NCBI RefSeq assembly: GCF_902652985.1
Contig: NC_047015.1
Span: forward strand, 39,618,001 to 39,682,000
Length of the DNA: 64,000 nt
Direction: 5' to 3'
Origin: Pecten maximus
Lineage: Eukaryota
A program made the translations under genes and the position numbers. The first letter of the stretch is position 1. Each line of letters begins with the position of its first letter. The notes under the pieces are model-generated. The model had not been told where the DNA came from and made no database searches. It worked only from the letters and a program-made list of their open reading frames with translations. Shown here one piece after another: positions 22,115-62,425 of this stretch.

Positions 22115-24317
22115 TTACGCTTTTGGCAACACGGACGCCCAGAAACCCACTCTATCTTTGTACATTGCCTCCTCTGTACTTATCGTCGCATTAAGGCTTA
22201 TATAACGGCGATCTTGGACATTGTACTCCGGCCACTGCATCTTCACTGCTAACCCTTTGTTTGGGTTCCTGAAACCGTGAAAAAGTAAAATACCGTTAAT
22301 TCACTCAATCAAACAAAGATGCTACATTATTAGTGTATACAGGACTATTAAACTTTAAAACACAACTGAGACAACACCAAGGCCATTCATTGGAAAATAA
22401 ACAGAACTTATGAGAAATATGCCATCTGCAAGAGGACAGCTCAAATCTCGGGCACAATTAGACATAAGGGAACGCGTAGAAGCTCGGTTCATTAAGCAAA
22501 TTGAGGCTTTCGATTCTAAACTATTGAGTTTTGTTATCCGACAATTCTAAACTCGATAACTACAACATCGTAAGAAAACCATGGTAGCATGAATACATGA
22601 AAAGTTGTTGGTAGGCAATTCAGCACATCCTCAGCATGTTGGTTTTGATCAAAATCTTAACTAGATGTTTCTTGGCAGTCTTAAAATGTACTACACTTAC
22701 TTCTCAAACATTACATGATCGATTTTATATCGAATTTACATTAATCGTAACTAGCAGTACTTACCCTGTTCTTGCGAAGTTGGACCAGTAGGACATCATC
22801 TGTTCCGCTAGAGTTTTGTCTTGGGGTCCACAGTCGGGCCATCGCTCAATTCCGAACAGGAAGGCGATCTCCCCTGCGTGTCCCGCTCCAGTAAACCACT
22901 TTGGATACGGATAACCGAATCCGAACCTGCTCATTCTTGACAAAAGCCATTGGTAGGTACGCCCTGCGCCACCTACATGTGCGTTCAATGTCAATATTCC
23001 AGGTGTGAAAAAGAAGATGTCGCTATAAATGTCAACGGCAAGACGACTCTGTTCGATACCGTCTCCACTTGGAGATTTATATCGGGAGCAGGCAGCATCC
23101 TTCAGTGTACGGTTGTTATGGAAGAACTCCTTCACCATCGTTTCGATAACGTCATCGCATAATATCCTATACGGGATTCCCTCTGACAGGTTAAAATGGT
23201 TCGGCTTTTGAAAAGAATAAAGTGGCTCTTGGAAAATTAGAGATCCTTCTGAATTAACGTCACCGTCTACGAAATCAATTGAACGGAATAACTGCATCCC
23301 GGGACTGGAAGGATCGTTCAAGACTTTTGCAGGATTATCCGTGATAAATTCACCATCAACAACAGGTGCAAGTGGCAATGCGTAATGAAGGTTGTGTTTA
23401 TCACTAAAGGTAATGTTAGCGATTTTGACAGACGCATCAAGTAGTTCTTCGGAGCTTTTTGTTCTCATGCATTTTAAAAACTTAACACTGTTTTCAACAT
23501 CCAGACACTTCAGAAAAATGCCCGTCCCAATTTGTGATAGTTTCGCAAAAGAGGTCTCTGTCACGGCGAAAAATGAGTTAGCTGTGCCACTATGAGACAT
23601 TGCCCTCTTGAACAAGCCCTTGTTGACAGGAGATATAGAATGGATACCGACACTAAAGCCGCCTGCCGATTCCCCAAAAATTGTTATGAGATCAGGATCA
23701 CCACCAAATGCCTGAATATTGTTCTTGGTCCATTGGATGGCTAGTCTTTGATCCCACAGACCGAAGTTCCCCGGGCAGTGAACGTCTGCCGTCGTGAGGA
23801 AGCCCCATATACCAAGTCGGTAATTGATAGTGACAATTATCTGGTCGCCGTGAATGGAAAGGTAGGAACCGTCGTAGAACATGCCCGTGCCTTCCACATA
23901 ACTTCCTCCGTGGATGTACAGCATAACTGGTTTTTTGCTACTCTCTGTTGTATTTGGAGGCATGTAAACATTCAGCACTAAACAGTCTTCAGATAATATT
24001 TTGTTTGGTAATAACGGGTCGTCCGGATTGATGATAGTCTGCATGCAGTTCGGTCCAAAATAGGTGGCGTTAAGAGTGTCTGTCCATGGTGCCATCGGTT
24101 GGGGCTTTGCGAACCGCAGATCACCAACAGGAGGTTTGGCGTATGGAATCCGCCGGAACTGGTAAACAAAGCTACCTAAGGCTGGTGTGTCGACTTTCAG
24201 ACCCATCATTTTTCCAGATGGTGTCACTATAGTCTTTGTCTCCATACATCTGCTTACCGTTGAGGTGATTGCAAGTACACATATCACCTGCAGAAGCCAC
24301 TTTGAAGCAGTCATCAT
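22115..24317 (-). CDS. Type-B carboxylesterase CE2 (568 aa), signal peptide, probably secreted. Exons 24317-22765, 22268-22115
   Basis: Motifs IPYAKPP, SEDCLVLNVY, HGGSY, FGESAG, GDVNSEG, GHAGEIAFLFG. Acceptor ccttcag at 24329; donor GG|GTAAGT at 22764; acceptor gtttcag at 22269 giving GNPNKGLAVKMQWPEY...MYKDRVGFWASVLPKA*. Confidence 0.92.
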
Positions 24318-27300
24318 GAGGTCTTCTCCTGAAGGTAAACAAAGGTTTTAGTAATTTCAATGAGTTTATTTTCTGTTGACCGAGAACGTTTAATTATCTT
24401 AAAAGTTTAAGATCTCCAACAAGGGAGACTAAACAAACACATCATATTTGACGAACATGAAAACGTTGATTTGAGAGGCGTCATTTACTAGATAGTCTCG
24501 TGATCAGCCTTTTTTTACTCCCTTTTAATATCCAATACCTTGTAGTAAACTGAATTATGAAGTTCTGGCATTGCGCAAATGAGACCATCTTTTTGATGAC
24601 TAAAAACTTTTAAGGGTAACTAACTAAATACATTATATTTAAAGCCATTTGATATATAGACAGTATCTTAGGTATGGCATAGCTGTCCTATAATATAACA
24701 CTACTGATAAGTATGCAATTACATAACTATTTGTTTATATCAGACTTATCCGTCGCGTCAAGTTCAGGTACATGTTAACACTTGCTGCCTTTAATAATAT
24801 ATATGTTATCCTCAGTATGTACATTTCTTCGTGATGTTGGTTGAACTTCATATGTCATCCAAAAAAAATCAGCTGTATAACTGCTGGTATTAGATAGTTT
24901 GTCGTCGCCTCCTTTATATTACTGCTTACTTATACTATCATACTACTTAAACCAAATCTGATCAGCTATATGTGGTATGGATATCATTATCAGTGGACAT
25001 AGGTCTTCCTCCATAGTAGCTGTGATAAAATCAATGCTATGTCCACAGCAGTTTATGTCTCATCGTTTGTAAGTATTATCTGCGATGTCAAAATTGACAA
25101 CAAGTGCCTCTATGTACTACCAAATTCCGCCCAAAATAGTTAACCATTTGTCATAAAATACTATAACGACAGGGTTTACACCTAATTTTCTGCCATTAAC
25201 ATCCAAACTTATTTTTGCTACAATTAGTTAATATATTTCGTTTTATGATCGGATATTTTGCTCATAGAAATTATTGTTGTGCTCATTCAGTAGCTGCAAT
25301 CTTCCATTAAAATCATTGACGGGCATGTTTTGTCTTTGTTTATGTACACGTTCTTCAAGTAACCATAATATGCACATTCTGTAACAACATGTGTAGCTAT
25401 ATCTAATAAACAAAAATGCATTGTTCTATAATCAATCTTGGTGTTCTTGCTTGTTGCCCTTCACATCGGTGAAAATTTGCATAACAAAAAAACAATAGAT
25501 ACTCTCTATTTGGTTACTATACGAAGGTATACTGAACACACAATGGTAAGCAACGAGATTTGGACAAGGTTAATCTTTGATCTACAATAGACCTTTGTGG
25601 CGTTCTATAACCACTTATTGTTGTTTTCGTCCTTTTATATTTGATTATTGAATTATGCATATTTTTCATAAAGGGCGATTTAGAAAATTTGCTTGTGTTG
25701 GATATATAACGTTGAATGCTTACAGTATAATTATATATATATATATGTACACCTATACGTGCTATTACTTACCGCAGATATCGTATCCCAGAGATCACCA
25801 ACAATATGCGTTGTCTACATACACAACAAGGGAAGTTAATGTTAGTGATAATACTACATGTGAAATATCAGTGACGACCTAGTTTCCGTATCCTTCATAA
25901 CTATATATGATAGCTTCGTATGATTATTAGTTGATAATAATGTTTTCAGCAATATTTGGCAATTTCATACAATTTCGTGTACATTTCCTAAGTTTGCTTA
26001 TACTTTGTGTTTAGTTTTGTATAGCCTAACCATTTCAGAATATTTATTTTAAGTGATTCAATATCCAAAATGCGAAATTGATTAAGTTATTGGACTTAAG
26101 TATGCTCATCTTGGACTTTCTTTTTTGGTTTTCATATTTTTGGTCCATGGAATTCCTGACGATTCCCAGAAGGACGGATAAGTGTCTGGTAAAATAATTA
26201 CTCAGGTCGTCAGAATAAAGAAATAAACATTAATGTATTTATGATTCATCATAACTCATTATTTAGCATCGAGTCTTCTAGTACTTTAGTCTGCATAATG
26301 GTTATCAAAGTGTGGGTCGTGCATCGTTCCTATTCACAAGGTATGTAAATAAAGTGGATGTTTAAACATTGACGTATTTGCTTTCGGTTTAGAAAAATAA
26401 AAATTGAACCTGAAAAGAATGAATTCCCCTTCTTGTTTTAGTTTGGTGTTATTCTGATTCTCTATTATCATTTTATGCCGATTTCAACATTAGATTTTAC
26501 AAGTTGTGATTGTCTTCTAGCTTCCTTTATACGCATAGACAGTGTTGGGATGTAAGTAGACCGTTATCCCAATGTTATCACTTAAACCTCTTTTACAATA
26601 AGAGCTGCTCTTACATACGTTTTATCTACCAACACACACATATCTTATCCAATAAATCTGTATACATCAGCTCATATCCAGCCTCAGTTCCTAACACTGT
26701 AACTACGCCGTCTTATCTAACTTACCCTCTGTAACACATCCATAGAACGTTGCTATGATATTTTCTTGTTCTGTTTGCAATATAGAATTGTTTTGGTATA
26801 TAATACCGAAACTAGTCATTCATTCATGCACATGTGCTTCAATTCAATATCAGGAAATGTGAATTAATATACATATTGTATACCAGCTAAGCATTCCGAC
26901 AGTATGTACGAGACAAGAGACGATACAAATGCATATATATAGAGAGTAAGTAATTAATAATTAATACAATCAAAATATCGTAAAGATAAAAGATTTTTTG
27001 TCCGTCGTGCTGATAAATCAAACTATCCAAGCATTTATGCTTTATAATATCGCACATAGAAATATCATGACTTAAGTAAATAAACGGTAAATAGCATTCC
27101 CTATTACTGTCAGTGAAATACAGAAAGAGGCGGAGGTAAAGTACTTAAGTATGATTCCTTTCATGTCCCCCAGGGGGCAAGTGATTGAGCGGAGAGGCAC
27201 GCGCACACGCGGTCACGTGGATCAACCGAGGCTCGATATTATCGTCAGCTCACTCTCGATCAATCACCAGGCGGCGTGCTGATCGAAAATACAAATGTCC

Positions 27301-29714: not shown

Positions 29715-32700
29715 TTAAAGGCAACGGATTAAGTGATAAAGAAATAACATAATAAGTAGAGTCCATTTGACTGACATCAGGGACGCCGCTCTGTCCGTAA
29801 CCGGAGTACTAGCGATCAGTGGAAGGTCTTTCTCCCAGAACTTGACACGATCCCGGAACATTGACTTCTGTTGGGAGATGGAGGACACAGCGAGATCGAT
29901 ATAACTACGGTTTACTTCATCATACTCCGGCCATCGGGTACCATCATCCGCCCCATGGTTAGGATCACTACAACACACAATGATAGAATCACCGTGACTG
30001 TTACTGTAATATATATAGGAACACAAAATGATATGATTATTACAGCTACAACACAAAATAATAGGATTACTGCAAATAAAACACAAAATAATAGGATCAT
30101 TGCAACCCAAAATAATAGGATCATTTTAACTACGTCACACAAAAATAGGATCATTGAACCCAAAACCCCCCAAAATAGGACCACTGCAACTACAACACAA
30201 AATAATAGGATCATTGAAAATACAACAAAAAATGATATGATCACTGCAACTGCTCTTGAAATATGATTATAGGACAACAAAAGGATAGGACTATTTCAAC
30301 CAGAACACAAGATAAAAGGATCACTACAAATGTTCCTGTCAGATGATTTGCAACCCAAACTAATTTAATCACTACAACCACGTCATAATACTATAGGATC
30401 ACTGCAATTACATCACAGAATATTAGGATTATTACAATACATGATGATAGGACTATATGAACAGGAATGAATAAGGATAATAGAATCACGAAATAAAATG
30501 AACACATACAATTTAATACACTCTAATGGACAACTGCAACATGAAAAAAGAGGAGAAACAAAACAATGCGAGAACAAAAACCTAAAATAGGACAGGAAAA
30601 TAGGATTCAGTATAATGGGATTGATAACAAGAGGCAAATGGCTTCGTAGCACGATGGTCCAGTTCATTAATGTTCAATGAATCGTATAGAGTGGTTTCTT
30701 GATTGACCAATTGTCGACAAAAATGTTTATATTAAATGTTGAGAGATTCAAGTAAGTGATCACTGAAATTACTGAGGTCATTATAACGTTTATAACAACA
30801 TACCGAATGAGCCGTAGCCCTAGCTTCAAAATAATCACATACATGGGTATGCCATTCTTAAATGACAAGGGGTCTTTTTGGAAAAAAAAATTCCTTATGA
30901 CAATTTCTTAGACAAACATTGACCTGATTTTGCAAATTTCAAGTTCAGCATTCCATATATCAATTTTGATATTCCAATGAATATTTTTTAATTGGTCTCA
31001 GTGATCATGACCTGATTTTGCAATTTATAGAAAAGTAGGTCACTGCGACCTAATTCTAAACAACAGGATCTACTGTATATCAATATGATTATAAATGTTC
31101 ATTGTTCTGTGGTTGTTTTTCAAATGTAGCTCACAGTGACCTTATTTTGCAAAATTCAAGTTCAGCATCTATTACTCAACCCAGATGTAAATTTCCACTG
31201 TTCTATTGCAATGTCACGAAAAGTAGGTCACTGTAACCTAATTATTTCTAATAAAATCAGATTAAGAATTTATAGGTCACCCAAGATGTTAATTTTCATT
31301 GTTCAGTGGCATTTTTTTTCGAAAAGTAGGTCACAGTTACTCTATTTTCAAAATTCAAGTTCAGCATCTATGATCTATATCATTCCATATACAATTGTAG
31401 GACCTGTTGATACCAAATTGATATATATGTTTTGTATTTTAAAGTTTTCAAAATATGCTCACATTAACTGAATGGGCTACAGAAAAAACTTATCAGGAAC
31501 AAAGCTCTGGAATGTAAGCCCTGCAAAGGGATCTCCATAGAAGAGTACATCAATTCAAACTATCCCCACTTAAAATAACTCGTTTTGTCACCTCCCACAA
31601 CAGAAACATGTGCAGAAACCAGGGCATCTGCCCAGTCTTAGTAGTCGACTGAGATGCTGTCAATGTAATATAAATCATATGTCATAGGTAAATATAATAT
31701 AAAATCACTTAGCATGTCATACATAAGTTTGGAATATTAGTAACAGCATTTTAATATATCATTCATTTTATATATAATAGTTTGAAACGACGGAGAAATC
31801 AGCTACATTATTCCCAGAATGCATTGTGTTTGACAATCAGTTTTTTACAAAACGGAATGAAATTTATTTTAAATCTTTAGACAGTTCATGTCTGTTTGTC
31901 TCAAGATTTTTTTATCAGTTCCGTCCTTATCTTTAACTTTGCGATGGAGCTGCAATGCTCCATCGTGCTAAAACTTAATTGGATCTTGGAAAACAAAATA
32001 ATAAAATCACTATACAGCACAAAAAAATGTCATTGGACTTCTTTGCTGGGTCAACGCCCCATAAAGAACCTTGGTCATTTTGATGCGGGTATCCTTGTAG
32101 AAGATGGTGACTACCTAACTGAACAACATATAAGTGGTATAAAAGGTAAATAAATCATTAACACATAAGGTATTAAAAGATGACTTATACGCATGAAATT
32201 CTAAGAATAAAATACAATGCCCCATAAAAATACAATATATGATATGTTTACCCGTATTTGGCGAAGTTAGCCCAGTACGTTATAATCTGCTTTACGAAGT
32301 CCAAGGTGGAGGAGGATATATTGATGTTCATTGATTTCATTTGTTCGATACCAAATAGAAAAATCAACTCTGTACCATGCTCAGATCCTCGGAACCAAGA
32401 TGGATGTGGTTTCCCAGATAATGACACAAGATTTGGTTCACTAAATAGGTACTGGAAGGTGCTGCTATCTTTATTATTTGAAGCGTGGATATCCAATGTT
32501 TTAATCATTGGCATATAGAAAAAGATATCGCCATACAAATCCATGATTTTTCTTGCCTGGACTTGAATATCACTTGAACCGAACTTGTCAACAATTGCCT
32601 TCCAAACATTACTTTGGTTTTTGTAAAGTTGTTCCGCGACAACCCGCGCAAAATATGACCGAAGTAAAGACGAAGGAACTCCTTCGCTCGTATTGAATCC

Positions 32701-33789
32701 GTAACTTTCTTCCATATATGGATATATATAGGCGTGGAGTAGAGATCCTTCGGCACTTACACATCCTGCAATTACGTCAAGTGATTGAAAGAACGCGTAC
32801 ACATCAGAAGACGTATTTTTCATAGACACCATGGGGGCACGTTTGATGAGTTCACCATCAACGACTGGGGCGCATGACGGACGGAACAGACTATCAGGAG
32901 CTAATAGTCCCATACGAATGGCATTTGTCTGTGTTGGAATGATAAGGTCGGTTGGAATATTTCGGACACAATCAAAAATAGCCTGTGAAGTTTGTACATT
33001 TTTACACTTAGATAGATAGCTAAATGTAATAGCAAAATCTTTCGGTTTTTCGTTAATAGCATACGCGGAACTGTAAGTACCACTCTGCATGATGACTCTA
33101 TGGAACAATCCTTTGTTCTGTGGTATAAGAGCTAGAAGTGAAACACTAAATCCCCCAGCTGATTCTCCAAAGATTGTAACGGAATCAGGATTTCCACCAA
33201 ATGATCTGATATTATTTTTCACCCACTTGAGGGCTTCGATTTGATCCCAAAGACCATAGTTTCCTCTTGCTACTGAGTCTCCAGTGCTAAAGAATCCCAG
33301 AACACCCAATCTGTAATTCGCGGTTACCACAATGACGTCACCATTGAGAGCTAGGCCTGAACCGTCGTATAACTGAGCTTGGCCAGTAACAAACGCACCG
33401 CCATGAAAAAACACCATAACGCTCTTGTTGGTCGTGGAAGACAATCCGCCGGACGTGTAAACATTTAGGTGTAGACAATCCTCCGAAACCTCTTTGTTCT
33501 CCAGCACATTTTTGATTGTTGCGGGAATCGCTTGTAGACAAGACGGTCCATGCTCGGTGCTGTCGTGGATGCTGCTCCATCTTTCAACAGCTACGGGCTT
33601 TTGAAACCGTAACTCACCCACAGGTGGCTTTGCATATGGGATTTTCAGGAACTTATAGACTGTATTTCCTGTACCAACCGGTACCTGACGTCCAGCCACT
33701 TTTCCTAAAGGTGTGTCAAGTGTATGATACTGGACTGGTGCCACCAGAGGCAATACAGGTAGGAGGCAAAGAAGGACCGTGTAGACCAT
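29715..33789 (-). CDS. Type-B carboxylesterase CE3 (~596 aa from Met at 33789; an upstream in-frame ATG lies at 33879), signal peptide and GPI-like tail. Exons 33789-32252, 29967-29715
   Basis: Signal MVYTVLLCLLPVLPLVAP; motifs SEDCLHLNVY, HGGAF, FGESAG, GCVSAEG, EHGTELIFLFG. Donor GG|GTAAAC at 32251; acceptor tgttgtag at 29968 giving GDPNHGADDGTRWPEY...RVKFW...DRAASLMSVKWTLLIMLFLYHLIRCL*. Confidence 0.92.
29960..30430. repeat. Degenerate ~30-bp minisatellite overlapping the CE3 terminal-exon splice acceptor
   Basis: Plus-strand unit aggatcactgcaactacaacacaaaataat; the first unit is the real intron/exon junction. Confidence 0.75.
30915..31400. repeat. Decayed satellite/HINE-type repeat (tgacctgattttgcaaa..caagttcagca; aaagtaggtcac)
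   Basis: Motifs recur at about 30920, 31008, 31137 and 31345, and at 31031, 31220 and 31324. Confidence 0.5.
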
Positions 33790-33997
33790 TGTGCGTTTTA
33801 TGTCCTTGTGATGAATTGCTTTATTTCCGAATACAAAGATGTAGTTTGATTGATGGTTTGTCACGGACACTTTTTTCATCTATTACTCGCTCATCTTTGG
33901 AGATCTGAAACAAATACACAATGGTAGTTTAAGTTCATTAGTCATTAAGCCTATACTACCGATATTTAGATTTGGTTATTTCTGTAATGTTTACTTA

Positions 33998-34156
33998 TGT
34001 AACCCTGGTAAATACTAGCCGCAATATACCGCTCGGCTAGAGAGATCTTCTCTTTAGCTCGATCGGTTGAGCGTAAGACTAGTATGCCAGAGGTCCCGGG
34101 TTCGATCCCTGGTGGAGGCAGTGATTTAAATTTAATTAATCATGCGCTCTGTTACA
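33998..34156 (+). mobile_element. Solo LTR carrying a tRNA-like (Thr-AGT-like) Pol III cassette; Helenus-type TRIM-like
   Basis: TGTAAC...GTTACA termini, 4-bp direct repeat CTTA at 33994-33997 and 34157-34160, A-box TAGCTCGATCGG (34055), B-box GGTTCGATCC (34099), AGT at the anticodon position (34081-34083). Confidence 0.8.
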
Positions 34157-34629
34157 CTTACACAACTTATACAATGTTTTTAATTTTTACAGAGCATGTC
34201 TATTTGCAGTACGTGCTTACTGTGTCCTAAAGACGAAGGCCGATAACGGCCTTGTCTCTTATAAATGCTATCATACTTAAAAGTGTTTTGCTTTTCCATT
34301 TATCAAATGAAATGAAAAATAGATAACACAAAATAACTTATAATAACACAAGGGTAAGGCGAAGCAACTTATGAAAGAAACATTTCACACACTTACACAT
34401 AAGTACATTAATTTCAGTATATATAAACTCATATTTATTTGTAGACTAAGACCATAAGTTCATGGTCATGCATTCACATCTCTCCCTACTTCAGCTAAGT
34501 AAACTGACTGCGAATAAATTGGCGTAAACGCAAAAGGGAGAGATGTTAATATATCAATGTGATGGTTTTTACCACTTTATTATTGGGAGAGATAAATAGA
34601 TGTCCTTTGCCGAATTTTCTGACGATTTT

Positions 34630-35095
34630 GACTATACTGTTAAAGGGTACTGCGTTATATTTTTGTGGTACATATTTGTCTATTATTACTGTTAAAAGGG
34701 TACTGCGTTAAATTTTTGTGGTACACGTTATACTATACTGTTAAAAGGGTACTACGTTATATTTTTGTGATACATATTTGTCTATTATTTTACTGTTAGA
34801 GTGTACCACGTCATGTTTGTGATACATATTTGACTATTTTTTACTATTTAGAGGGTATTCGTTATATTTCTGTGGTACACATTTTATCATTTTTACTGTT
34901 AAAACTGCACTGCGTTATATTTTTGTGGTACACATTTTACTATACTGTTAACAGAGTACCGCGTTTTATTTTGTGGAACACAATTAACAATTTCTACTGT
35001 TTATAGGGTACCACGTTATGTTATTGTGGTACATATTTGACTGCTTTGGCATTTAAAAGGGTACCGCGTTTTATTTTTGAGGATCACGTTTAACT
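34630..35095. repeat. Degenerate ~50-55-bp tandem repeat (tactgttaaagggtactgcgttatatttttgtggtaca)
   Basis: About 9 imperfect units. Confidence 0.8.
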
Positions 35096-36007
35096 ATGTC
35101 AAAGTGCACCGGCCGGTATGGGATATGGTACACTATATTCTTTTGTACTAATAGTTAAGTCAAAACTACAATGACCAGTCAGAGCCAGACAAAATGATAT
35201 GAATGTTTATATCTTTCTGTATGGTACACAAAGATATGTGTATTGTTTTGTACCAAATTAACGGCCGAACACAGTCGTGATACAAACACATGTGAAACCA
35301 GCATTAGAGGTTACAAAGTATGACAAAGTACATCCGGATAAGACTGTCGTCACATGCTATGACATCTTATAACATGTTATGTTAATTTCACCAAAAATAT
35401 GCACGATTTGATAAATACGTTTTGGAAATATGATGATCTAGTTAAACGACTCTTTTACTATCTAAAAATCTATCAAAACAAGGGAAATGACGAAATATAC
35501 AGATGCCCTATTTTTGATCAAATCTGGATTCCAATACTTACCAAATTGACTAATTCTATTTTTCGGTTGATAAACTTCATGTTTTGTGTTAAAGTAATAG
35601 GTAGGGCTTTACTGTCCGGGGTCAGTTATGATCATGCCGACCGAAAGTAAACATTCGGATTATTTAGTGGCTTACTTTTTTCATATATATTATACTGTTG
35701 GAAAAACAAAAAGAAATGAAAAGGGTAACGCGATAAGTAATAATTTGATTTTTTTTTTTTTAAATCTTAGTACCATAATACATTTTTATGGTAGGCAAAT
35801 AGTTCAATTTTCATACATTTGTGCACCATATAAAAGTGTAGCAAAGTGCAAAATGATATGAAATGTCGGCCATCGCATAATTGTTTCCCACGTTACACTT
35901 TTGTGTGGTACATATTGTACTGTACGTTTGAAAACATAAAGTGTGCTGTTCTATGCAGTTAAGTGAAATGTGTATTATGAAAAACTGTAACACTTTACAC
36001 TTTCATC

Positions 36008-36083
36008 ATCTTTGCTAGCCAAGGCCTTTTGATTGCGTTAAACTTCACGTGTAACGCAATCAGAAGCCTTGGCTAGCGAAGAT
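36008..36083. mobile_element. Short palindromic MITE-like hairpin
   Basis: atctttgctagccaaggccttttgattgcgtta / taacgcaatcagaagccttggctagcgaagat imperfect inverted arms; no clear TSD. Confidence 0.6.
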
Positions 36084-39000
36084 TCAATTTTTACTGAAAA
36101 CGTAGCCGTTCTGGTAGACGCTATATTTCTATCACATGGACTTATATATATGGACCGTGGGTTGTACATTCGTGCCAAGTGCCTGTGATATGTATAACCC
36201 CCTGTACACCTGTTCTGGGTAGTGTTCTTATCTACTGAAACACCCCAGTCTTCGAGCATCAGACGTCATCACCAACCTAGTAAAATGGACAGCTTTAGGA
36301 TACGAAACCGCGAACGTTAGATAAAGGAGCCATTCTATTCCAGCGTCTTAACGTTTAAGTATCCCTCCTCTAACCCCTCCTGTCATTCTATCTTATCAAC
36401 CACATTTTATACAAGATCCGATCAGACCAAGTCCTCAATGGCACCGTCCATATTTTTGCACATCTTTCATACGATCCTATCCTCGTTCTATGCATCCCTA
36501 TCTCTACATATACCTAGTCTGGCTGAGTGCCGTATTACGAAGAGGCGTTAGGCTGGTGTTGAAACAATAGAGATTTTTTTAAGCTAGGATATTTACTGAA
36601 ATATCTACCAATATACCTCCTTCGATAGTTGGTTTACCAGGTCCCGGTTTCATCAACGTTCCGTAACTTAAGGAATGCATTAACTCCAAGTGTTCATAAG
36701 CAAACATTATAGGATTTTGGGCCAGGCTAGCATTAAAGCTGTCTACATAAATGATGTAGGCAATGCGTGTCTTTTGTAAAACCGAATACAAACAATTAAA
36801 AGACATCATATTGATGCTTCTGTCATTGTGTCTCTACTTTAATGGTGTAACACATAATAACTAGCATGACCTCCGCTAAAACAGCGTAACGATTAACTAC
36901 AGCCCTGGAACATGTGCATTGATATTCGTTATACTAACATATAAATTCATTGAGATATGAAATAATTCCACGCCTCTTAAATTGGCTAGTCCACACGAAT
37001 TCCAGCTAGACCGGATGTGTTAATGATTTTTCATCCATGTTTACGACAGCGTCTATATACTGCACGTTATGAAGTTTATGCAGCAATATTGATTCATAGT
37101 CTCCAACGGTTAGGCAATGTGGTGACTGCCAGAGCAGGCATGGTGAAATCAATGAACTAAACGAGATTAACAGCAGCCAGTGGACTACCAATCACGTGTA
37201 TATTGTGCTAAAGAAGCAGTAGATAGAGTAAAATTTGATAACAACATCATGTTTCACATGTGCCAGGGGCGTGGACTCGTACAGATAAGACGAGAAACGT
37301 CGTTTTATCATATCATTGACCATCGTTTGTTATGGGGAACAGTGATATTGTGATGCCATGTATATCCATTTACAAAACAACGACCATGGACGGTGTGTAA
37401 TATAGAATGGCTTTGTTGTAATTTATACAGTCACCTAGAATATTGCAATTATTAATTTTACAGAACAAAATTTGAGCATATGCGGTCGACACTATATGTG
37501 ATCTTGTATACATATACACAGTAAGCTGATGCAGCGAGCATCTGGAATTTTAAGTGTCCGTGTACTACCACTCAAAATGTCAACTTGCCGGTCTGATGAC
37601 AAATTGGGCAGACACCGAGAGGCTACACAAGTGGACACTCTTGGAATATAATAATTTGGTCTAGTCTTGCAAGTCGTGATGACCTAGTTCATAATTTCTT
37701 ACATATATTACGGTATACACATGAAGATGGACACTTGCAAAGAAAGCACGGGACTTTCCTGTTACAACAGTAAGACAATGCACAGTGTGTACCTGTACGT
37801 AGAGATATAAATAGAACACATAATACACATCGCATTCCACACATGGCCTCGTACATCACAAGTATCACATGTACCTAGGCATGATATACGTCATACAAAA
37901 TAATTATAAAAACACGTGTTAAAATATACTTCTTAACCAGTTTTAAAATTTTACTTACACACAATTTACAGAGGAACAATTGTTGATTACTTTACCTGTT
38001 TTTTGTTGAAACCCTTTGCATCAAGGCATTAGAACACTGTACTCCTCAGCCGTAAATAACCTCCACAAATTTCACCGGAGTAAACATAATCACACACATC
38101 CTCACTCTCCTTGCTAGCTGACAAACCCCTCCTTACAAAGAGTGATATGGTGCGTGCTGGGCGACTATCTAGTCAGTATCGGATTTACCAGAAGATGCGC
38201 GTGTATTAAAATATATACTAATGTCGTAGCGAGCCTGGAGGGCAATGTATACAACGTGATCCTGTTAATGTAACGAGCATCAGTGTAGGAGTGTCTGATG
38301 GGGATAGACGGATGTATAGTCGATGTTTGGATGTCGAGTGTCTGGTTAGCTTAAAATAAGTCTCGGCGTAATTAATAAGTCTGTGCTAAACAGATGGAAG
38401 TGCTGTGCAAAGAGATTACATCAATATACCGTAAGAAATAAACGACTTACTACATTTATGTATAAGTCCTTGACAGGTAACAGTTTTTGCTAGTCATGTG
38501 CAGCAATAGGCTGCAGACGGCCACACTGGTGTATAATGAAACGATAATATTGTATTGTATTGATGAGTCACTTCATGGTGGGAAAACGGTCCGCTTCCTA
38601 GCTCGTCCCGCGCCGACGCGAGAAGTCCAGTCGGTACTCACGTGCACGTGCAATCCAGCATACCTAATTTCAGAATCTTGTTGAAATATGTCTGCATATC
38701 TTATGTCATTTCAAACATGGAAAATATATATAAAGGAAAAAGAGTTCAGATGTACAAAATTCGTGCATCGATCTATGCCAAGACTGACCTTCAAAGATAT
38801 GTACTGATTGTCGTCTTGGGTAACATGGACAGCTCTCAGCGGGGGGAATTTTGGAGTTCATTTCCACTGTTAAACCAATTACCAAATGCTGATAAAAAGT
38901 TATGGGCGTCTGTTCATTGTATCAAGCCCCACTGGGCCTACTCAGCAATGTATAGAGCGATAATCAATGCATACCTGATACATTTATATCACTCAAATAT

Positions 39001-60240: not shown

Positions 60241-61809
60241 AACAAGAGGCCCATGGGACCTGTATCGCTCACCTGGTTGGATTTGACCAAATGTCAAAAT
60301 AATGTTCATGTTCAATTCATTTTGTTTGTCAACCTCAAACAGTGCTATATATGGTTATAGTGTGGGGATCCCAGCTGCTTTAAAGAAATAATGAAGTCCA
60401 GACTCTGAGTCTCTAAGTTTACAACATGCATTCATAACTTTATGACTAGTAGCGATTTAAAAGGAATTACCATTATTTACCCTATGGGGCCCCATCCCTT
60501 TGGTCCCACGGGGGTCAAAGTCATTTTCCAAGGATGTTTCTGATCAAATTGGGTTCAAATCCATTCATAACTTAATGACTAGTAGCGATTTAAAGGAATT
60601 ATCTCTATTTCCCATATTGGGCCCCGCCCCTTTGGCCCCTTGGGGGTCAAAGTCATCATTAATGCAAAATCTGTTTTGCTTTATATTTAATTTATATTCT
60701 CCAAGGATGTTTCTGACCAAATTGGGTTGAAATCCATTCATAACTTTATAACTAGTAGTAATTTAAAGGAATTACCTCTATTTCCCCTTATGATCCCCGC
60801 CCCTCCGGCCACTTGGGGGTCAGAGTTGCCATTTATGCAAAATCTGTTCTTCTTCCCACAAGGATGTTTCTGACTTAATTAAGTTCAAATCCATTCAAAT
60901 CTTTATTATTTGTAGCCATGTAAAGGAATTACAACTATTTCCCCTATTGGGCCCCGCCCCTTTGGCCCCTGGAGAGTCAGAGTCACGAATTATGCAAAAT
61001 CTGTTCCCCTTCCCCCAAGGATGTTTCTGACTAAATTGGGTTGAAATCCATTCATAACTTTATGACAAGTAGCGATTTAAAGGAATTACCTCTATTTCCC
61101 CTATTGAAACCCGCCCCTTTGGCCCCTTGGGGTCAGAGTCACCATTTATGCAAAATGTGTACCCCTTCCCCCAAGGATGTTTCTGACCAAATTCATTAAT
61201 TGGGATCAAATCCTTTCATAACTTTATGACAAGTGGCGATTTAAAGGAATTACAACTATTTCTCCTATTGGGCCCCGCCCCTTTGGCTCCTTGAGAGTCA
61301 GATCAGTCACCATTTAAGCAAAATCTGTTCCCCTTAAGCTTCCCCCAAGGATGTTTCTGACCAAATTGGGTTTAAATCCATAGATAACTTTATGATTAGT
61401 AGCGATTTAAAGGAATGCCTCAATTTCCCCTATTGGGCCCCGCCCCTCTGGCCCCTTGAGAGTCAGAGTCACGAATTATGCAAAATCTGTTCCCCTTCCC
61501 CAAGGATGTTTCTGACTAAATTGGGTTGAAATCCATTCATAACTTTATGACAAGTGGCGGTTTAAAGGAATGACCTCTATTTCCCCTATTAAAACCCGCC
61601 CCTTTGTCCCCTTGGGGGTCAGAGTCACCATTTATGTAAAATCTGATCCCCAAGGATGTTTCTGATCAAATTTGGTCAAAATCCAACAAGAACTTTTTGA
61701 CTAGTAGCGATTTGAAGCAAATGTTGATGGACAACGGACGGACGACGGACGCCGCACCATGACATAAGCTCACCGGACCTTTCTACCTTCGGTCCAGGTG
61801 AGCTAAAAA
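60241..61809 (+). mobile_element. HINE/Helentron-type element with ~8 x ~160-bp satellite units
   Basis: aacaagaggcccatggg start, subterminal IR gctcacctgg / ccaggtgagc (61794), (gacg)n tract, tandem units containing caaggatgtttctgac..aaattggg..aaatccattcataacttt. Confidence 0.88.
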
Positions 61810-62023: not shown

Positions 62024-62147
62024 CACAGGCGTCTGAAGTTCTGACAGTAAACTGAGATATAATACCATAGAAAAAATAATAGTAGATACTCTTATTTTTT
62101 CTATGGTATTATATCTCAGTTTACTGTCAGAACTTCAGACGCCTGTG
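62024..62147. mobile_element. Intact palindromic MITE, 7-bp TSD CTACGAT, P-superfamily-like
   Basis: ~55-bp near-perfect inverted arms cacaggcgtctgaagttctgacagtaaactgagatataataccatagaaaaaataa; ctacgat at 62017-62023 and 62148-62154. Confidence 0.9.
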
Positions 62148-62425
62148 CTACGATCGCGACTACGGGTACGGTATGCTTTTTTCAAATGCATCACCTGTGT
62201 CAGGTACAGTGTAATTGATTTTATCTATATATCTGTCAAACAATATTTATGTGCGATCCATCTCATATATAAAATATTTTTAAACGCACCCCAGTGGTCA
62301 AACTGTCAAAATACTCGACTTTAGCTGCCTGAGCCTGGGTCCAGTCTCCAGACGAAACTCGTAATTTATAAACTTGAAAATCTAGAGAATTTCGTATAAA
62401 TGAAGAATGTGTTATGTAAACTTAC

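What the first reader, a model, noticed from the sequence alone, without database searches (positions are those of the whole stretch)
33994..34160. tRNA-containing solo LTR with exact 4-bp TSD, ~90 bp from a carboxylesterase exon
Seen: a 159-bp unit with TG...CA ends, 6-bp terminal IR (TGTAAC/GTTACA) and CTTA duplicated on both sides. It encloses intact Pol III A and B boxes and a good T arm, but poorly paired acceptor and anticodon stems (AGT). It has no poly-A tail, so it is not a simple SINE. Known from recall: Cassandra TRIMs carry 5S rRNA in their LTRs, and Helenus TRIMs carry tRNA-like sequence with 4-bp TSDs in animals. Inference: a recombined solo LTR of such a Pol III-driven miniature LTR element, pointing away from (antisense to) CE3 inside its upstream intron; it could act as a TFIIIC site or small-RNA source.
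Basis: partly seen in the sequence, partly recalled or inferred. Interest (0 to 1): 0.7.

Follow-up and report, generated by a model that had tools for sequence, protein, structure and literature searches.

The report
Solo LTR of scallop Helenus-1
This 159-base piece is a copy of the end repeat of Helenus-1_PeMa, a small parasitic retrotransposon family with a tRNA look-alike published in 2024, likely left behind by recombination and likely a harmless insertion, absent from one other sampled animal, in an intron of a carboxylesterase gene.

Summary
Real, but already known. Window 33998-34156 is a 159-bp TG...CA unit with CTTA on both sides and no PBS or PPT beside it. It matches the published Helenus-1_PeMa LTR (Kojima 2024) at 156 of 159 bases (by eye; the same three differences computed against genomic copies). 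The genome holds two-LTR copies with PBS, PPT and varying 4-bp TSDs. The unit lies antisense in a 4.1-kb 5'-leader intron of a carboxylesterase gene, 92 bp from the acceptor; one other DNA sample lacks it. Nothing shows an effect on the gene. Three additions not found in the parts of the paper read: the PBS is an exact 18-21-nt match to the host's tRNA-Lys(UUU), not Lys(CUU) as filed; intact Gypsy-type elements share that PBS, one also the PPT junction; and the LTR's 5' third is predicted to fold back on the tRNA part (z -6.4). The scan noted Helenus-type solo LTRs before on other DNA (flatworm, two notes).

The parts
33998..34156 (+). Solo LTR of Helenus-1_PeMa (159 bp; 6-bp terminal inverted repeat at 33998-34003 and 34151-34156)
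33994..33997 (.). Left target-site duplication CTTA
34157..34160 (.). Right target-site duplication CTTA
34048..34120 (+). tRNA-like segment, below the Rfam threshold; 46-48 identical columns of 74-75 to host tRNA-Lys genes
34055..34066 (+). Pol III A box, same as the family majority
34099..34109 (+). Pol III B box, same as the family majority
34001..34095 (+). Imperfect inverted repeat: LTR bases 4-48 are complementary to the 5' two-thirds of the tRNA-like part (predicted fold-back hairpin, 3-nt loop at about 34046-34048)
34177..34181 (+). First run of 4 or more T downstream of the LTR (possible Pol III stop; the LTR has none)
33905..37995 (-). 4,091-bp GT-AG intron of the carboxylesterase gene, upstream of its likely start codon; holds the LTR in antisense
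32252..33904 (-). Large carboxylesterase exon (likely start ATG at 33789; PF00135)
37996..38250 (-). Upstream exon joined to the large exon in transcript-type contigs

Best explanation
[quoted passage not shown] Shown: family identity, two-LTR copies with PBS and PPT, 4-bp TSDs, an 18-21-nt match of the PBS to host tRNA-Lys(UUU), Gypsy-type elements with the same PBS, intron position, one empty allele. Inferred cycle: a full-length copy is transcribed by Pol III from the A/B boxes of its 5' LTR (the LTR has no T4 stop); the RNA is packaged by a Gypsy helper; tRNA-Lys(UUU) primes the minus strand and the PPT the plus strand; integrase inserts with a 4-bp stagger; LTR-LTR recombination then removes the 105-bp interior. 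The solo copy has no PBS or PPT and so cannot move again by this route.
For: 156 of 159 identical to Helenus-1_PeMa-LTR (by eye); the three differences are the three places where the window base is the minority among 73 other copies and in four sequencing runs. 268 exact LTR-PBS junctions, 0 in the reversed control. Of 30 other distinct elements in the loci, 16 carry an exact 4-bp TSD (6 solo, 8 two-LTR, 2 three-LTR; 15 different tetramers); of the other 14, 11 abut a PBS or PPT and 3 are truncated or rearranged. The two LTRs of L009 and of L028 are identical, so activity is recent. PBS vs tRNA-Lys(UUU): 18 of 18; vs Lys(CUU): 13 of 18, run of 9. The minor PBS variant matching the second Lys(UUU) isodecoder occurs in 6 of the first 100 listed junctions (of 142), against 0 of 300 T-to-C changes at three control positions (counted by eye; Fisher p 2e-4), as expected if the PBS is recopied from the primer. 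Five long elements with the same PBS have RT-RNaseH-integrase in Gypsy order; L102 also shares a 15-nt PPT/LTR junction and has a 4-bp TSD. In run X8 one contig crosses the site with 25 letters where the window has 176. Four of four transcript-type runs splice the intron.
Against: Pol III transcription was not shown for this or any copy; only assembled contigs were available. A and B boxes vary about as much as the rest of the LTR among copies (5.1% and 3.6% vs 4.5%), so the copies give no sign of selection on them. A clean empty site would have 13 letters, not 25, and the letters were not shown. The helper link rests on PBS, PPT junction and TSD length; no longer similarity to any long element was found. 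In a position-ordered sample only 13 of 26 other elements kept a 4-bp TSD (many are truncated or diverged). The PBS variant lies at a CpG-type site and only 1 of its 6 cases is on the second internal background.
Confidence: 0.9

Rival explanations
1. Same origin, but this copy acts on the carboxylesterase gene, as a TFIIIC-bound barrier or as a source of a roughly 135-nt antisense Pol III RNA ending at the T run at 34177.
For: Both promoter boxes match the family majority; a T5 run lies 20 bp past the LTR; the LTR is 92 bp from the splice acceptor.
Against: The site is empty in X8. X3 and X5 (probably one data set) hold both a contig leaving the LTR into this intron and an exon contig that ends at the normal acceptor. 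CpG positions vary 9.2% vs 3.8% elsewhere, which fits methylation of the family.
Confidence: 0.07
2. The single LTR was inserted as such (for example from a one-LTR intermediate) rather than left by recombination.
For: A solo LTR with a TSD looks the same either way; no allele with the full element at this site was seen in the four runs laid.
Against: Solo, two-LTR and three-LTR forms all carry 4-bp TSDs, the usual products of LTR-LTR recombination; Kojima 2024 reads Helenus solo LTRs the same way.
Confidence: 0.02
3. A SINE, a MITE or a decayed tRNA gene with chance TG...CA ends.
For: A tRNA-like core; the end signature alone occurs 3 times in the window.
Against: Copies occur as direct-repeat pairs around a PBS and PPT; no tail; fixed ends in hundreds of contigs.
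Confidence: 0.01

Closest known systems
Helenus-1_PeMa (Pecten maximus; Kojima 2024, PMC10886601, Data S1, Table S1, Fig. S2)
   Same: LTR 156 of 159 identical; LTR 159 bp, interior 104-105 bp, 4-bp TSD, same PBS and PPT.
   Different: Three private substitutions in this copy. The paper files the PBS under tRNA-Lys-CTT with a gap, using Aplysia tRNAs; host tRNA-Lys(UUU) matches exactly. A second internal subfamily of 104 bp exists that by eye is nearer Helenus-3_MiYe-I.
Helenus-3_MiYe and Helenus-2_ArIr (other scallops, same paper)
   Same: Near-identical LTR layout and ends, same PBS and PPT (by eye).
   Different: More substitutions, mostly in the 3' part of the LTR; other species.
Cassandra (plant TRIM with 5S rRNA in the LTR)
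   Same: Pol III promoter inside the LTR, tandem LTR-interior arrays; self-complementary LTR folds are predicted there too (PMC7215508 passages).
   Different: 5S type-1 promoter instead of tRNA A/B boxes; plants; Pol III transcription reported for Cassandra, not for Helenus.
biv-TRIM (Satovic 2019, PMC6934838)
   Same: Miniature non-autonomous LTR element of bivalves.
   Different: No canonical PBS; its hairpin is in the inner domain, not in the LTR (passages).

Membership tests
Helenus (TRIMp3), animal type | Full element under 1 kb with two LTRs and no coding capacity | tested here: met
   422-423-bp two-LTR copies
Helenus (TRIMp3), animal type | tRNA-like sequence with A and B boxes inside the LTR | tested here: met
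Helenus (TRIMp3), animal type | PBS complementary to a tRNA 3' end just after the 5' LTR | tested here: met
   18 of 18 to host tRNA-Lys(UUU) in two-LTR copies; absent from the solo copy itself
Helenus (TRIMp3), animal type | PPT before the 3' LTR | tested here: met
Helenus (TRIMp3), animal type | 4-bp TSD | tested here: met
   16 of 30 other elements, all those with both outer ends intact; 13 of 26 in a position-ordered sample
Helenus (TRIMp3), animal type | Transcription by Pol III | not testable with these tools
   only assembled contigs were available; also unvalidated in Kojima 2024
Helenus-1_PeMa | Over 90% identity to the published LTR | tested here: met
   156 of 159 by eye, supported
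Functional tRNA gene | Cloverleaf above tRNA-model thresholds | tested here: not met
   17.6 bits vs 29; no ARAGORN call; anticodon stem 2 of 5
tRNA-derived SINE | Single unit with a 3' tail and variable-length TSD | tested here: not met
   no tail, paired LTRs, fixed 4-bp TSD

The most novel reading that the evidence does not exclude
Bivalve Helenus LTRs have traded the tRNA cloverleaf for a long fold-back hairpin between the 5' third of the LTR and the tRNA part. Because Pol III would start near the loop, the hairpin could form only in the 3' LTR of the transcript, where it would serve as the stop, packaging or strand-transfer signal that lets a Pol III RNA use a Gypsy particle. The 53-bp satellite units that break at LTR base 48 would mark that start boundary.
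Probability: 0.25. Interest if true: 0.5.

Novelty: already known. Interest (0 to 1): 0.2.

Why it matters
As a locus it matters little: one of roughly a thousand copies of a named family. The family-level details are modestly useful. The exact primer (tRNA-Lys UUU, two isodecoders mirrored in the PBS) and Gypsy-type elements with the same PBS narrow the helper question that Kojima 2024 leaves open, and recent, polymorphic copies make the untested Pol III model testable in scallops.

Tried and rejected
Bona fide tRNA: rejected. SINE or MITE: rejected. Selection on A/B boxes among genomic copies: no signal. My script's D-stem, anticodon-stem and first T-stem offsets were wrong; stem counts are taken from the Rfam alignment. 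Longer similarity between Helenus-1 and long LTR elements: none beyond PBS and PPT junction. Locus-specific expression of the LTR: cannot be told from contigs; LTR-matching contigs in transcript-type runs have many different flanks. The fold-back test gave z at or below -2 in only 1 of 8 Helenus-4-type loci, all tandem arrays. Earlier scan notes by sequence: none. A search for 'TRIMp3' found only the Kojima paper as relevant. Repbase and Dfam are not available here.

Full report
Observation. The sequence shows a 159-bp unit at 33998-34156 with TGTAAC/GTTACA ends and CTTA on both sides. The tRNA-like core at 34048-34120 scores 17.6 bits on the Rfam tRNA model, below the 29-bit threshold, and ARAGORN calls no tRNA in the window. 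A and B boxes lie at 34055-34066 and 34099-34109. The end signature by itself is not rare: 3 stretches of 100-400 bp in the window meet it.

Genome-wide copies. A search of the own genome gave 2,319 first-look candidates, of which 40 were scored; 40 full-length matches were 97-100% identical. The exact 22-nt LTR start occurs 1,356 times, tandem arrays of a partial unit included, and the exact LTR-PBS junction 268 times; both reversed controls gave 0. In the 30 loci my script listed 34 rows; after dropping 3 duplicates and the window, 30 elements remain. Sixteen carry an exact 4-bp TSD (6 solo, 8 two-LTR, 2 three-LTR), 11 abut a PBS or PPT, and 3 are truncated or rearranged. In a position-ordered sample 13 of 26 kept a 4-bp TSD (3 duplicates and the window dropped from 30). 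The window copy has genomic DNA, not PBS or PPT, on both sides, so it is a solo LTR.

Identity. Kojima 2024 (PMC10886601; read: main-text parts 1-4 and 6 of 6, supplement parts 1 and 10 of 11, and searched passages) lists Helenus-1_PeMa from Pecten maximus with LTR 159, interior 105, TSD 4. Its LTR differs from the window at LTR bases 88, 114 and 116 (by eye). These are the only three places where the window base is the minority among 73 other full-length copies, and the three dominant differences in four sequencing runs. The host is therefore likely P. maximus (inference from the family match).

Gene context. The neighbouring frame at 32248-33879 on the minus strand is a carboxylesterase (PF00135). 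Four of four transcript-type runs join 33907 to about 38000; the sequence gives a GT-AG intron of 4,091 bp at 33905-37995, with 92 bp between its end and the LTR. The LTR is antisense to the gene. In run X8 a single contig (depth 27.9, equal to its flank depth) covers 33300-33997 and 34174-34892 with 25 letters between, so the LTR is missing there; a clean empty site would have 13, and the letters were not shown. X1, X3 and X5 have contigs running from the LTR into these flanks. The insertion is thus most likely polymorphic. Contigs cannot show whether this copy is transcribed.

Primer. The paper files this PBS under tRNA-Lys-CTT with a gap. A pattern search found host tRNA genes ending in the exact complement; ARAGORN calls them tRNA-Lys(TTT). 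The match is 18 of 18, running to 21 in one subfamily; Lys(CTT) gives 13 of 18. Two Lys(TTT) isodecoders differ at one base of that stretch and both versions occur in the PBS: the minor one in 6 of the first 100 listed junctions of 142, against 0 of 300 at control T positions (counted by eye; p 2e-4). This fits recopying of the PBS from the primer, a known step of LTR reverse transcription (recalled). An old sublineage is not excluded: 5 of the 6 are on one internal background.

Helpers. Thirty-six places carry the same 18-nt PBS after a different upstream base; 20 were read, and 13 of these are not Helenus-1 interiors. Eight were fetched at 10 kb; seven showed a pol-sized frame of 1,330-1,494 aa, and the five pol frames scanned have RT, RNase H and integrase in Gypsy order. 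The family of L102 also shares 15 nt across the PPT/LTR junction and has a 4-bp TSD. No longer similarity was found, so which family helps is open.

Fold-back. LTR bases 4-48 are an imperfect inverted copy of the tRNA part. The whole LTR folds with z -4.5 and bases 1-98 with z -6.4; 0 of 300 shuffles reach the inverted-repeat score. Of 24 loci from a second pattern, 20 distinct ones were folded: 9 of 12 Helenus-3-type LTRs reach z at or below -2 with a different distal sequence, 1 of 8 Helenus-4-type array units does, and 0 of 6 true tRNA-Lys genes (family labels by eye). The pattern itself held the inner palindrome, so only the distal pairing is independent. The paper's main text has no occurrence of 'hairpin'; searches found no other paper on it, though figures and subscription papers were not seen. 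Self-complementary LTRs are predicted for Cassandra (PMC7215508, passages). The function is untested.

Verdict. A solo-LTR copy of a published family, probably neutral. Already known; interest 0.2. The scan's earlier notes describe Helenus-type solo LTRs in flatworm DNA; they were not checked here and did not change the reading.

Noticed in passing
L101:313-1250 (G000:C2:4352100-4353050): Tandem array of 53-bp units made of Helenus-1 LTR bases 1-48 plus 5 more letters; the same joint appears in several sequencing runs. A satellite that breaks at the predicted hairpin loop.
   Followed up: partly
L109, L111, L112, L122-L127, L130-L132: 66-68-bp tandem arrays made from part of a Helenus-4-type LTR.
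   Followed up: no
L100, L102-L108: Several Gypsy-type families with near-identical LTR pairs (95-100%) share the tRNA-Lys(UUU) PBS; L102's gag has a PNMA-like domain.
   Followed up: partly
L073, L074: Tandem tRNA gene clusters (Lys-TTT, Gln, Arg) with periods of about 1.2 and 2.8 kb.
   Followed up: no
L011:23-331: Two LTRs of another tRNA-bearing element, by eye Helenus-2_PeMa, near a Helenus-1 array.
   Followed up: no
window 22761-24347 and 32248-33879 (-): Two tandem carboxylesterase genes, each with most of the coding sequence in one large exon.
   Followed up: partly
window 48225-49578 and 60426-61741: Arrays of 155-173-bp related repeats with short inverted flanks (47719-47787, 49653-49719, 62024-62150), like satellite-bearing non-autonomous elements of bivalves (label recalled).
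   Followed up: no
window 41614-42267 (-): 217-aa frame with a Thr/Glu-rich 8-residue repeat and a C-terminal membrane-like segment.
   Followed up: no
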